A DNA stretch of 22,142 bases from the UHGV virus genome UHGV-0075672. The stretch is one strand, 5' to 3'. The stretch's first letter is position 1. The number at the start of each line of letters is the position of its first letter. This document shows positions 3,001 through 6,000 of this stretch, one piece after another. Source of the stretch: a virus. A program made the position numbers.

Positions 3001-6000
3001 GGCAAGTTGCAACAACTTCATCCCGTCCCCGTGACCACAGACACAAATCCATGAACCGGAACCATCCTTATCATCACAGCGAAATTTACCTCTGGCACCA
3101 CATATCGGGCAGGGGCCGCTATAATGTTTCAAGCCAGTAACAGGAGGCATGCCGTAATATTCAAAAATTCGCCCCCAATGCCCGGCCGCTGCCTTCTTAG
3201 TCTGCATGCTGGCCTCCTGTCATGGCTTTCTTGCGCCCTTTGGCATAGGCAATGGTCTTTGACTTGATGAAGTTGTACACTTCAACTGAGGTTTGCAGCG
3301 GCGCATTACTGAAGCCTTTAGGCCACACACCGAACTTCTCCTTGTAGGTATGAGCGCACCATCCGTCACTCAGGGGTTTACCCGTCGCGTTGCGGTAATT
3401 CTGATAACCCTTGATCTCACTCCACCAACGCTGTTTTTCCTCACGGGTGTATTCGCGTTTCCCTTTGTTGACGCGTGAAAGCTTACGATCGCGATCTGTC
3501 GCCACGTCATCACCACCAAGTGGGCGAAATCCACATTTGGGACACATGTGTACACCAGCAGGCTTCATGAAGTGGCATTTGGGGCATTCTCTGGGAAGTT
3601 TTTCAGCTTTAACCTCGCCACCGCCAGCAGACGCTTTCATTCCGTCATTTTTTCCCGGAAGTTCGTCATACTCGATATCCTCGGGGAAGCCCAGCCGATG
3701 AACCGTACCGGAATGGTCGAAAATCAATGCGCGTTTTTTACCAGACGCAGTACGTAACGCTCTCCCGATGCACTGCAACCAGCGGATTTCTGATTTGGTC
3801 GGACGGGCGTAGATCAGGCAGCGAACATCGCTGTCAAATCCCGCAACCAGTACGCCGACGTTGACAATTATTTTGGTCGCACCATCTTCAAAACGGCGAA
3901 TGATATCCTGCCGTTCATCATGGGGGGTATCTGCCGTCATCACCTCTGCGCCAATGCCAGACTGTAAAAACTCACGGGTAACAAAGTTCGCATGAGCCAC
4001 GTTCACGCAGAAGCAGATCGTCGGTAAATCCTCGCCATTCTCAAGCCAGTTGCTAACGATATCGCCAACCAGATCCGAACTCCCCATGATGGATGCGAGC
4101 TGTTCCTCGTTGTAATCCCGTCCAAATACGGTGTTACTGGTTTTTACGCCAGTCAGATCAGGCATTGAGGGGGCAAAAAACTCGTAATCGCTCAGATCAC
4201 CACGCTGAATAAGTTCACGAATCGTTGTAGGCTTGATCAGGCATTCGTAGTACTTCCCCATCCAGGCTGCGAATGGGGTGCCGGAAAGTCCAAGAACCCT
4301 GATGTCTCTGTCCCGGATAACCTCAAGTAACGCACGACGCTTCATGTGTGCTTCATCGATGATCAGCAGATCGATGTTGTCAGGAAACTCACGACGGATC
4401 AGCGTGTCGGCACTGGCAATCTGAATCAGTCGTGACGGGTCATAGTTAGGGTGATCACGCCATACAAAACTGATTTCTTCCCACGGTAAACCGTATTCGG
4501 TGAAACGTTCCGCTGTCTGGTTCAGCAGGATGGTGTACGGACAGACAAACATCACCCGCATACCACGTTCAACCATTCCGGCGGTGACGAATGCTGCAAG
4601 ACCAGTTTTGCCAGAGCCAGTGGGTGCGTACATCAAGTACGTGCGATGCTGTTTCCACTGGTGCCGCAGCTGGTTTAAACCGCGCTCCTGAGCAAAGTTT
4701 GGGATTATTTTCAGCATGACGCCCCCTTGCTACGTGATTTACCCGTTGCCGGGATCACGTCGATCTCATCGCTAACGTATTGATCCGGATTACGTGAACA
4801 GCGCAGAAGCACGATACCAGGAATGCCGTATAGCTTGAGTCTGCGCAGTTTCAGTATTGAACGTGCCCGTGGTGACGCTCTGTCCACCTCGATCGCGCAC
4901 CGTTCACCAGATGGGGCAACGACCATGATATCGACGAATCCGCGCTTACCGTTGCCCATATCAACCAGATAATTACGTTCGATCGCCAGTCCGGCATCAC
5001 GCAATTTGGCAGCCAGCACATAATCAAACGTGACCTTGTCTTTTCCGGTGTAGAATTTGTTTCCGAGCAGGCTGATAACCACATGTTTGATGAACATGGT
5101 ACTATTTCCACTGTGATAGTTAGCACAATAATAATTGTGCCAGAAACTATCGCGCCCTATACAGTGATCTACCTAACCTATGGAGCTGCCTTCCTCTGGT
5201 AGTGCCCTTACGGGCACGGATGTTACAGATCTGCCCCCTTACCCCCTTCTTAGTAAAATTTCAAGCCAAATAATTTCACATGAAATTATTTCACAAAAAA
5301 TAATCACCTTGATGAGGTCTATTCCTTCCGTATCGCTACTGGCGAAAGCATCCAGCCACGGCTGGCTCTCGCGTACTTCTGGACATACACCCGTAACCGG
5401 GTGTTGGCGCTCCGTCTTGCCCTGTTGCCCTTCCTGAACGATACAGGCTCCTTGTCCCACTCTTCCTGGTACACTCTCGCGTACTCTGCTGCAATTTTTA
5501 CCCTGGTGGTCGGGTCTAGCTGTAACAATTGCTCCTGTATCCAGTCCCGATCAGCATCGCTGTACTGATCGGGCATAACCGTTTTGATTTGCCTGTTCAC
5601 TCACACCTCCGGTGCGCTGTGTGTCCAGGATTAATCATCGCCTCTTACGAACGCAGGGAACGGACGAACCTCTTCCGCCTCAACTGTGCCGTCATCAAAG
5701 GTTTTGACGTATATTTCTCGTCCGACGAGAAGCGCTTTACTGATTGCACTCTGCGCCACGCCAAAGTCCTTAGCGGCTTTCTTCTGACCGAACCTGTATA
5801 CGTAATCAGCCAGGGTCTCTTTTTTCATCGCCATAACTGACTCCTTCAAAATGCCCATATCATTACGCACAGTTATTAAAATGTCAACACCGCAGATATT
5901 TCATTACATATAACCAAAGGTGATATGGTATGAACATGAAAAAGAAACCGTTAACCCCTGAGCAACTGGAAGACGCCAAGCGTCTGAAAAGTATTTTTAA

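What the first reader, a model, noticed from the sequence alone, without database searches (positions are those of the whole stretch)
5098..5318. Iteron-like direct repeats and a palindrome inside the replication module
The non-coding gap between the 93-aa gene and the 128-aa/helicase/primase genes contains three to four copies of AAAT(A/T)ATTTCACA (5245-5298), a palindrome GCACAAT-aata-ATTGTGC (5123-5140) and a hairpin GTGCCC-ttac-GGGCAC (5203-5218). No O-like initiator gene is present, so this AT-rich repeat region is a candidate origin for the helicase-primase system.
Basis: inference. Interest (0 to 1): 0.4.

Follow-up and report, generated by a model that had tools for sequence, protein, structure and literature searches.

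The report
Origin-like element beside phage helicase

Summary
The window is an Eru1-type lambdoid or Stx-like E. coli prophage. On the minus strand the order is cro, a 93-aa gene (p93), the gap, a 128-aa gene, an SF2 helicase and a primase.

The repeats are real. There are two near-identical 13-mers, a 15-bp period, and one unit missing in a close relative. The palindrome is specific to this window. The hairpin is limited to this lineage.

Comparison with 80 helicase loci and 24 viral contigs shows something larger. p93 is nearly always followed by a non-coding gap. In about 60 loci that gap holds one roughly 150-bp core in a fixed orientation:
- a G(n)-W3-G(n) pair whose two runs have equal length in 58 of 59 loci;
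- a strong G>C bias on the sense strand;
- a CATAGGTTAGGTAGATC block with four-fold GATC enrichment.

The core shows no conserved RNA fold, sigma-70 promoter, terminator, nut site, DnaA box or Rfam match. Sibling loci without the core carry palindromic iterons plus a RepL-like initiator gene at the same position.

Best reading (about 0.5): this is the cis-acting origin region of this replicon. No origin for Eru1 phages appears in the searchable literature. A transcription-coupled R-loop or hybrid-G-quadruplex origin is a speculative reading that the data do not exclude. Nothing here is experimentally shown.

The parts
5319..5600 (-). p93: a small conserved protein of unknown function (PHROG 852). 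The likely start is the ATG at 5576, giving 85 aa. It is the gene that always precedes the element.
   Evidence: PHROG 852, E = 3.7e-42, with no Pfam match. A homologue lies upstream of the helicase in 78 of 80 loci. Homologues also occur next to replication genes in Vibrio, Aeromonas and Shewanella phages. There is no PDB or Pfam relative. The AF2 model is helical, pLDDT 69.
5248..5305 (-). AT-rich 15-bp tandem array: GAAATWWTTT units, with 2 good copies and 1-2 degenerate ones. It is the lineage-specific 'upstream flank' of the core.
   Evidence: One unit is deleted in STEC1585 and GAAAT is kept in the window-type relatives. P13374 has two diverged copies.
5234..5246 (-). G-run pair GGGGG-TAA-GGGGG on the sense (non-template) strand. 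It is the most conserved motif of the element.
   Evidence: It is the only exact G5N3G5 in the window. It is present in 59 distinct loci as G(n)-W(1-3)-G(n), with equal run lengths in 58 of 59. It is identical in the six E. coli and phage sequences aligned, including P13374.
5202..5217 (-). Hairpin GTGCCC-GTAA-GGGCAC, with a GNRA-type loop on the sense strand. It is lineage-limited.
   Evidence: Energy -6.9 kcal/mol, z = -3.4. It is invariant in window-type relatives and absent from P13374. Mini-hairpins GTGC-GAA-GCAC, GCGC-GAA-GCGC and GCCC-GAA-GGGC sit at the same place in L026, L054, L070, L071 and L078.
5140..5193 (-). Conserved block GAAGGCAG.T.CATAGGTTAGGTAGATCACTGTATAGG..GCGATAGTTTCTGG. 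It contains GATC at 5166-5169. A second GATC lies at 5228-5231.
   Evidence: The block is nearly identical between the window type and the P13374 type, although the rest of the gap is only about 72% identical. TAGATC is conserved across genera. GATC occurs 2.1 times per 150-bp core against 0.52 in surrounding DNA. The block matches in 147 of 5426 complete E. coli genomes and is always unannotated.
5123..5140 (-). Downstream flank. In this window it is a palindrome; in relatives it is a further GAAATTATT-like unit. It is enclosed by an outer inverted repeat, GATAGTT (5145-5151) / AACTATC (5115-5121).
4711..5097 (-). 128-aa gene (ORF35-like). It is a variable, optional gene inserted between the element and the helicase, and is probably not the initiator.
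   Evidence: It is only 37% identical to P13374 ORF35 although the flanks are 97-99% identical. A homologue is present in only about 15 of 80 loci. There is no Pfam hit. P13374 ORF35 has a weak match to a PD-(D/E)xK nuclease family, E = 0.037. The AF2 model is unreliable, pLDDT 43.
3197..4717 (-). Eru1A-type SF2 DEAD/DEAH helicase with a C-terminal zinc ribbon.
   Evidence: Named as Eru1A in PMC8044961.
2236..3207 (-). Eru1B-type primase (zinc ribbon, DUF7146, Toprim).
   Evidence: Named as Eru1B in PMC8044961.

Best explanation
The gap 5098-5318 is the cis-acting replication region, the origin or an essential part of it, of the p93 / SF2-helicase / primase ('Eru1') replicon.

Proposed architecture:
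- A core of about 110-150 bp conserved across Enterobacterales: a G(n)-W3-G(n) pair, a purine-rich stretch, and a CATAGGTTAGGTAGATC block with Dam (GATC) sites.
- Lineage-specific short repeats or inverted repeats flanking the core. In this window these are the 15-bp GAAATWATTT array upstream and one related unit downstream.

Proposed working:
- The element lies inside the early rightward transcript and is read through from pR, with the G-rich strand as the non-template strand.
- The flank repeats would be recognition sites for a still unidentified specificity factor.
- The conserved core would be where strands open and the phage helicase and primase gain access.

What is shown: conservation, exclusive linkage to the module, fixed orientation, non-coding nature, and the absence of promoter, terminator and RNA-fold signatures.

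What is inferred: origin function, the binding partners, and everything mechanistic.
For: 1. p93 followed by a non-coding gap of about 130-430 bp precedes the helicase in 78 of 80 loci from many genera.
2. One copy of a roughly 150-bp core, always in the same orientation and just after p93, occurs in 60 of those loci. It also occurs in 24 IMG/VR contigs, all of which carry the helicase. The other roughly 95 contigs with the bare 15-mer lack the extended core.
3. When extra genes are present they sit downstream of the element, so it stays attached to p93 and is not a helicase leader.
4. Loci lacking the core have, at the same position, palindromic repeats plus a RepL-like winged-helix initiator gene. 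PF05732 is above its cut-off in L003, L008, L017 and Vibrio L083. The same p93 clade precedes either cassette.
5. Origin-like features are present: a short tandem repeat with copy-number polymorphism, four-fold GATC enrichment at conserved positions, a 76% AT stretch, and hairpins.
6. It is not coding: indels are not multiples of 3 and G-run lengths vary.
7. There is no consensus RNA structure, no Rfam match, no terminator, and a sense sigma-70 promoter in only 1 of 59 loci.
8. No other repeat-rich non-coding region exists in the replication module.
9. No origin has been described for Eru1 phages in the papers that define them.
Against: - There is no experimental evidence of any kind.
- There is no dedicated initiator gene in this window, and no DnaA box with one or fewer mismatches in the gap.
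- The AT-rich stretch is not conserved in relatives.
- Sharing of a motif between the two flanks is significant in only 12 of 59 loci by an exact-substring test, and not in the window itself.
- p93 cannot be the specificity factor. L029 and L037 have 97.7% identical p93 genes but different flank motifs.
- The RepL-type palindromes in sibling loci could be mere autoregulatory operators.
- In some helicase-primase phages of Gram-positive bacteria the origin lies downstream of the primase (own knowledge). The position argument is therefore suggestive only.
- GC skew shows no switch at the gap. None is expected in a transcription-dominated phage genome.
Confidence: 0.5

Rival explanations
1. Classical iteron origin. 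The AT-rich AAATWATTTCACA repeats are initiator-binding iterons and the unwinding element, and they are the functional heart of the origin.
For: The tandem repeat is real, has a 15-bp period and shows copy-number variation. The region is 76% AT. It lies next to the replication genes.
Against: There are only two good copies. The repeats are diverged in P13374 despite nearly identical replication proteins. Unrelated motifs replace them in other genera. There is no initiator gene and no DnaA box. The AT-richness is not conserved. The invariant parts of the gap lie elsewhere.
Confidence: 0.15
2. Transcriptional control region. Either it is a promoter or operator set for the replication operon, or it is an antisense (lambda pO/oop-like or pRE-like) promoter reading back through p93 and cro towards cI, perhaps activated by p93 acting like CII.
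For: There is a plus-strand promoter-like match TTCACA-18-AATAAT at 5275-5304, scoring 10/12, that overlaps the repeats and points towards p93, cro and cI. p93 occupies the position of lambda cII, and one phage record annotates it as CII. The repeats can be read as palindromic operator-like sites.
Against: A sense-strand promoter is found in 1 of 59 loci. Antisense matches are scattered and not positionally conserved. The window's promoter-like match decays in close relatives and is absent in P13374. No terminator exists for a short antisense RNA. There is only one G5N3G5 in 22 kb, whereas CII has several targets. p93 travels with replication genes, not with immunity type. The flank motifs differ from the cI/cro operators.
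Confidence: 0.15
3. RNA-level element of the early transcript, for example a processing, stability, pausing or antitermination signal in the p93 3'UTR or the helicase 5'UTR.
For: The orientation relative to transcription is fixed. The strand asymmetry is strong. The hairpin has a GNRA loop on the sense strand. In some relatives, hairpins with a conserved loop TTAAAGGT and compensating stems follow p93.
Against: RNAalifold finds no consensus pair in 27 diverse cores. There is no Rfam match, no boxA in the gap and no U-run terminator. The G-rich, C-poor sense RNA is the opposite of a Rho-utilisation site (own knowledge). GATC conservation is a DNA-level feature.
Confidence: 0.12
4. Module-junction sequence with no function of its own: a conserved linker that only serves homologous recombination between mosaic lambdoid phages, or chance repeats in AT-rich spacer DNA.
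For: Mosaic breakpoints do fall at the edges of p93 and inside the gap.
Against: The motifs are far more conserved than the flanking coding DNA across genera whose helicases are only 61-70% identical in protein. The equal-length covariation of the G-runs and the conserved GATC positions indicate selection on the sequence itself. The repeat exceeds chance.
Confidence: 0.06

Closest known systems
Phage lambda ori-lambda with O/P, and the Stx-phage O-type origins (PMC7466680)
   Same: It lies in the early rightward operon, downstream of cro and of the gene in the cII position. It is read through from pR. It has short repeats plus an AT-rich stretch.
   Different: There are no O or P genes. The element is intergenic, not inside an initiator gene. 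There are not four 18-19-bp iterons. The conserved core is a G-run pair plus a GATC block. The replication proteins are an SF2 helicase and a Toprim primase.
Satellite phage P4 ori/crr with the alpha primase-helicase (own knowledge)
   Same: The primase is of the same zinc-ribbon/Toprim class (PF08273). The origin is made of short repeats recognised by the phage's own replication protein, with no need for DnaA.
   Different: P4 alpha fuses the primase, an SF3 helicase and an origin-binding domain in one protein. The P4 iterons (TGTTCACC-type) are absent here. Here the helicase is SF2 and separate.
RepL-like initiator plus palindromic iterons in sibling helicase-primase modules (found here: L003, L008, L017, Vibrio phage 1.233.A)
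   Same: The position is the same: immediately after p93 and before the same helicase-primase pair.
   Different: Those cassettes encode a winged-helix initiator and repeats such as CGACAG-N-CTGTCG. The window has neither. It has the G-run/GATC core instead.
Transcription-primed R-loop origins: ColE1 RNA II and mitochondrial CSB II (PMC3488243, PMC4176368)
   Same: Two G-tracts lie on the non-template strand downstream of a strong promoter, and no initiator protein is present. CSB II is G6AG8, and here the motif is G5-7 W3 G5-7. Two non-template G-tracts suffice for a DNA:RNA hybrid quadruplex (PMC3664831).
   Different: There is no evidence here of an R-loop, of RNA 3' ends, or of RNase H or Pol I involvement. 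The polymerase is E. coli RNAP, not a T7-like enzyme. The resemblance rests on sequence form only.
Lambda pO/oop region between cII and O (own knowledge)
   Same: The map position is the same, and there is a promoter-like match pointing back into the upstream gene.
   Different: There is no terminator, the promoter match is not conserved, and there is no Rfam match.

Membership tests
Iteron-type theta origin (lambda or plasmid style) | Three or more directly repeated initiator-binding sites, conserved with the replicon | tested here: inconclusive
   There are two near-identical and 1-2 degenerate 15-bp units. Copy number varies between relatives. The repeats are diverged in P13374 and replaced by other motifs in other genera.
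Iteron-type theta origin (lambda or plasmid style) | A cognate initiator gene adjacent to or containing the iterons | tested here: not met
   No O-, RepA- or RepL-like protein is found. p93 and the 128-aa protein have no Pfam match. p93 does not co-vary with the flank motif. The 128-aa gene is optional. RepL-like genes occur only in sibling loci.
Iteron-type theta origin (lambda or plasmid style) | AT-rich unwinding element next to the repeats | tested here: inconclusive
   The stretch 5245-5310 is 76% AT, but relatives with the same core have gaps of about 50% AT.
DnaA-dependent origin | DnaA boxes (TTATNCACA) | tested here: not met
   There is no match with one or fewer mismatches in 5098-5318. 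The window total is 17 against 19.6 expected.
Dam/SeqA-regulated origin | Cluster of GATC sites | tested here: met
   The gap has two GATC sites. The mean is 2.1 per 150-bp core across 59 loci, against 0.52 in surrounding DNA. TAGATC is positionally conserved. Methylation dependence itself cannot be tested here.
R-loop or hybrid-G-quadruplex origin (ColE1 / CSB II type) | [quoted passage not shown] | tested here: met
   G5-TAA-G5 lies on the sense strand. pR-like TTGACA-17-AATGAT lies upstream of cro, with no terminator in between. The sense strand is 39% G and 11% C. Tract lengths are equal in 58 of 59 loci.
R-loop or hybrid-G-quadruplex origin (ColE1 / CSB II type) | A persistent RNA-DNA hybrid or RNA 3' end at the G-tracts that primes DNA synthesis | not testable with these tools
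   This needs DRIP or S9.6 mapping, 3'-end mapping and footprinting.
Intrinsic terminator (tR1-like) | GC-rich hairpin followed by a U-run | tested here: not met
   No terminator-like sites are found in 4900-6000. Neither hairpin is followed by a T-run.
N-utilisation site (nutR) | boxA consensus upstream of a boxB hairpin on the transcribed strand | tested here: not met
   There is no YGCTCTTTA match with one or fewer mismatches in the gap on either strand. The only exact boxA is at 9408-9416 (+).
Known structured RNA (Rfam) | Match to a curated covariance model, or a conserved fold | tested here: not met
   There is no relevant match at E <= 5 in 4000-7000. RNAalifold predicts 0 consensus pairs in 27 sequences.
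Sigma-70 promoter of the replication operon | -35 and -10 hexamers at a conserved position in sense orientation | tested here: not met
   Only 1 of 59 loci has any match of 9/12 or better in sense orientation.

The most novel reading that the evidence does not exclude
The element is an initiator-less, transcription-coupled origin.
- The PriA-like SF2 helicase (Eru1A) and the primase (Eru1B) then assemble on that structure.
- This would tie phage replication directly to derepression of pR. It could relate to the high spontaneous phage production reported for Eru1 Stx phages.

Observations that prompt this reading:
- The two G-runs have equal length in 58 of 59 loci, while their centre-to-centre distance varies from 8 to 10 bp.
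- The spacer is always A/T only.
- The orientation relative to transcription is fixed.
- The sense strand has 39% G against 11% C.
- There is no initiator gene.
- Two non-template G-tracts are enough for a hybrid quadruplex (PMC3664831).

Against it: the window has only two G5 tracts, and ViennaRNA with G-quadruplex terms does not predict a quadruplex in the window's RNA. No experimental data exist.
Probability: 0.2. Interest if true: 0.8.

Novelty: new variant of a known kind. Interest (0 to 1): 0.55.

Why it matters
- Eru1-type phages carry stx2a in the O104:H4 (2011) and O103:H25 (2006) outbreak strains. They lack lambda O/P, and the papers that define them report unusually high spontaneous phage production (PMC8044961).
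- Toxin output follows phage genome amplification, yet no origin has been described for this replicon in the literature I could search.
- A defined 110-150-bp candidate with clear mutational targets (G-run pair, GATC block, flank repeats) makes that question directly testable.
- The same element occurs in 147 of 5426 complete E. coli genomes and in prophages of Klebsiella, Salmonella, Yersinia, Proteus, Serratia, Photorhabdus and Xenorhabdus. A result would therefore generalise.
- If the G-run pair works through an R-loop or hybrid quadruplex, it would be a bacterial-virus counterpart of the mitochondrial CSB II priming site.
- The analysis also flags p93 as a widespread, uncharacterised protein linked to replication modules.

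Tried and rejected
- **p93 as origin-binding specificity factor: rejected.** L029 and L037 have nearly identical p93 but different flank motifs, and the same p93 clade precedes both the G-core and the RepL cassettes.
- **Flank repeats as extra cI/Cro operators: rejected.** They do not resemble the operators in the cI-cro intergenic regions of L007, L029, L037 or the window.
- **128-aa ORF35 as initiator: unlikely.** It is optional and hypervariable. The structure model was too poor (pLDDT 43) for a fold search.
- **p93 function: no result.** Sequence and fold searches gave nothing (PDB, Pfam, Foldseek PDB and BFVD). One weak C-terminal fusion to a DUF5906 primase-helicase-type protein is only a hint.
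- **Coding potential of the gap: rejected.** ORFs 5180-5437 (+) and 5239-5460 (-) are ruled out by indels in relatives.
- **nutR, terminator, Rfam RNA, DnaA boxes, conserved sigma-70 promoter: all negative**.
- **Small plasmids carrying only this module, as proof of autonomy: not found.** The 37-42-kb 'plasmid' hits are phage genomes.
- **Exact-substring test for a motif shared by both flanks: only 12 of 59 loci significant**. The 'sites on both sides' picture is therefore partial.
- **GC-skew inflection: none**.
- **Literature searches: nothing.** Searches for an Eru1 origin or for the G-run motif found nothing.
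Full report
**Context**

The window is a lambdoid, Stx-phage-like prophage of E. coli.
- The region 4600-5950 matches 98 phage records, mostly Stx2a-converting phages and the O104:H4 phage P13374.
- The gap itself is nearly identical in 15 of 5426 complete E. coli genomes.
- Annotation of relatives and family scans give this order: cI (5930-6643, +); then on the minus strand cro (5631-5870), a 93-aa ORF here called p93 (5319-5600, PHROG 852, no Pfam), the 221-bp gap, a 128-aa ORF (4711-5097), an SF2 DEAD/DEAH helicase (3197-4717), a zinc-ribbon/DUF7146/Toprim primase (2236-3207), a NinB-like gene, NinG, NinH and Q.
- This is the 'Eru1' replication region of Llarena et al. 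2021. It replaces lambda O/P in the O104:H4 and O103:H25 outbreak phages (PMC8044961).
- Neither that paper nor its 2022 sequel mentions an origin, iterons or this non-coding region. Further searches found nothing.

**Checking the observation**

The repeats are real.
- The two 13-mers at 5268 and 5283 are the only good plus-strand matches in 22 kb.
- TRF finds a 15-bp period. A 12/13 match at short range occurs in 1 of 2000 dinucleotide shuffles.
- In gene orientation the array is GAAATWWTTT + 5 nt, repeated three to four times (5305-5248).
- A close relative (STEC1585) lacks exactly one unit, and the GAAAT that starts each unit is kept in the window-type relatives.
- The same bases also form a perfect 11-nt inverted repeat.

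The other two features hold up less well.
- The palindrome 5123-5140 folds well but exists only in this window. Relatives have GCGAAATTATTATTGTGC or GCTAAATTATTATCATGC, which is another GAAATTATT-like unit.
- The hairpin is at 5202-5217, one base off the stated coordinates. It is stable, invariant in window-type relatives and replaced in P13374.

**What comparison shows**

Using an alignment of helicase homologues, I fetched 80 loci from one genome per species. They include Photorhabdus, Xenorhabdus, Proteus, Morganella, Providencia, Yersinia, Serratia, Pantoea, Citrobacter, Enterobacter and Gilliamella.
- A p93 homologue (33-58% identity) lies upstream of the helicase in 78 of 80 loci.
- It is followed by a non-coding stretch, usually 130-430 bp. 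Variable optional ORFs may come next, and then the helicase.
- The 128-aa gene is one of those optional ORFs. It is present in about 15 loci and is only 37% identical between the window and P13374, although p93 and the helicase are 97-99% identical there.

In 60 of the 80 loci the gap contains one copy of a roughly 150-bp core, always in the same orientation. The core comprises:
- a purine-rich run;
- G(n)-W(1-3)-G(n), which in the window is GGGGGTAAGGGGG at 5234-5246;
- a short variable segment, which in the window and five other lineages is a mini-hairpin;
- a block CATAGGTTAGGTAGATC..., at 5140-5193 in the window;
- an A-run.

A scan of IMG/VR for the 15-mer GGGGGGTAAGGGGGG returned 120 contigs. 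A profile of the core matched 24 of them, and all 24 carry the helicase and, where the contig allows, p93 and the primase. The remaining hits are bare G-runs in unrelated contexts. In E. coli the GATC block is found in 147 of 5426 genomes and is never annotated.

**Properties of the core**
- Across 59 distinct loci, the first 100 nt are 39% G and 11% C on the sense strand, with 69% purine. GATC occurs 2.1 times per core against 0.52 per 150 bp nearby.
- The two G-runs have the same length (4, 5, 6 or 7) in 58 of 59 loci, with spacers made only of A/T. No permutation out of 10,000 reaches this. The loci are related, so the number of independent events is smaller than 58.
- RNAalifold finds no consensus pair in 27 diverse cores, and Rfam has no match.
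- There is no terminator, no boxA and no DnaA box in the gap.
- A sense-strand sigma-70 promoter appears in 1 of 59 loci.
- Indels that are not multiples of three exclude coding.
- Because inserted genes always lie downstream of the element, it belongs with p93's 3' side rather than with the helicase's 5' end.

**The flanks**

On either side of the core, different lineages carry different short repeats or inverted repeats:
- TTTAGACGTCTAAA-like;
- GTACTAG-N-CTAGTAC-like;
- hairpins with loop TTAAAGGT;
- in the window lineage, GAAATWATT.

A motif shared between the upstream and downstream flank is significant in 12 of 59 loci, where about 3 are expected. It is not significant in the window itself. 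The pattern is therefore real but partial.

These sites are not cI/Cro operators. They also do not co-vary with p93. Two prophages of one Xenorhabdus genome have 97.7% identical p93 genes but different flank motifs.

**An alternative cassette at the same position**

The 19 loci that have p93 but lack the core have other gap types.
- In L003, L008, L017, L019 and L072, and in Vibrio phage 1.233.A, the gap holds palindromic repeats such as CGACAG-N-CTGTCG.
- The next gene there is a RepL-like winged-helix protein (PF05732, above its cut-off in four of them), followed by the same helicase-primase pair.
- The same p93 clade precedes either cassette.

The slot after p93 is thus occupied either by 'iterons plus initiator gene' or by the G-run/GATC core without an initiator. 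This positional equivalence is the strongest argument that the gap is the origin region. It is still only an argument from position.

**p93**
- It belongs to a family of about 154 clusters at 50% identity. Members occur in Klebsiella, Providencia, Yersinia, Vibrio, Aeromonas and Shewanella phages and are always near replication genes.
- It has no relative in Pfam or the PDB.
- The AlphaFold model is a small helical protein of moderate confidence, with no informative structural neighbour.
- Its function remains unknown. Its position mimics lambda cII, but its linkage is to replication modules, and only one G-run pair exists in the 22 kb.

**Verdict on mechanism**

Best supported (about 0.5): the gap is the cis-acting origin region of this replicon. 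The conserved core is the common functional part, and the AT-rich repeats are lineage-specific flanking sites.

Rivals:
- a classical iteron origin centred on the AT-rich repeats (0.15);
- a transcriptional control region, including an oop/pRE-like antisense promoter (0.15). The window has a 10/12 promoter-like match at 5275-5304, but it is not conserved;
- an RNA-level signal in the early transcript (0.12);
- a functionless recombination linker (0.06).

The most novel reading not excluded is an initiator-less origin primed through an R-loop or DNA:RNA hybrid G-quadruplex, by analogy with mitochondrial CSB II (PMC3488243, PMC4176368; two non-template G-tracts suffice, PMC3664831). Equal G-run lengths, A/T-only spacers, fixed orientation relative to pR transcription and the G>C bias are compatible with it. 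Nothing here demonstrates it, and the folding program does not predict a quadruplex in the window's own RNA.

**Limits**

All evidence is comparative and computational. E-values and shuffles do not correct fully for shared ancestry. The loci were sampled through the helicase, so linkage of p93 to other replication modules is under-sampled. Only open-access literature was searched.

Noticed in passing
window 1-62 and 22080-22142: Both ends of the window are perfect short tandem arrays: CTGGTCG x 8.9 (7-bp period) and CAGTTCAGC x 7 (9-bp period). Their context, coding or not, was not examined.
   Followed up: no
window 5234-5246; loci L003-L082: The two G-runs of the conserved core have equal length (4, 5, 6 or 7) in 58 of 59 loci, with A/T-only spacers. 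This covariation has no obvious protein-binding explanation.
   Followed up: partly
window 5319-5600 (-): p93 (PHROG 852) is an uncharacterised small helical protein. It precedes the replication genes in 78 of 80 enterobacterial loci and also occurs in Vibrio, Aeromonas and Shewanella phages. It has a conserved basic helix ...NxARxxANTRLR....
   Followed up: partly
window 4711-5097 (-); L002 5610-5987: The 128-aa gene is only 37% identical between the window type and P13374, although the flanks are 97-99% identical. Its D...ExD motif and a weak REase_MTES_1575 match suggest a PD-(D/E)xK nuclease-like protein. The structure model was too poor to test this.
   Followed up: partly
window 6738-9157 (+): A restriction-modification pair (an Eco57I-type methylase domain protein and a BsuBI/PstI-family endonuclease) sits directly downstream of cI, on the same strand.
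   Followed up: no
window 9408-9416 (+), within non-coding 9158-9842: An exact boxA consensus TGCTCTTTA lies in the large non-coding region of the leftward operon and may be nutL. No boxA match was found on the minus strand between cro and the helicase, so the position of nutR, if there is one, is unclear.
   Followed up: no
L018, L021, L023, L026, L049 and others, just after the p93 stop: There are one or two hairpins with a conserved loop TTAAAGGT and stems that differ by compensating changes, including G-T pairs that fit only the sense strand. An example is CGGGC-TTAAAGGT-GCCCG versus CTGAC-TTAAAGGT-GTCAG. This looks like a protein-recognised RNA or ssDNA hairpin. The window keeps only a remnant, TCAAGGTG.
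   Followed up: no
L012 3328-3399 and L037 2643-2714: The GATC block of the core is partially duplicated in tandem in two Xenorhabdus prophages.
   Followed up: no
L016, L020, L033, L036, L064, L067: A third type of post-p93 gap occurs here: GGCTGTGTCTTCTGGCTGTGG ... an A-run ... CCCCCCTATTTTTTTT, followed by a roughly 295-aa ORF with no Pfam match. The whole unit is duplicated in L067.
   Followed up: no
L083 4760-4800; L084 4765-4790: In Vibrio phages the p93 homologue is followed at once by a strong intrinsic terminator (AGCCCC...GGGGCTTTTT). The enterobacterial loci have none at that place.
   Followed up: no
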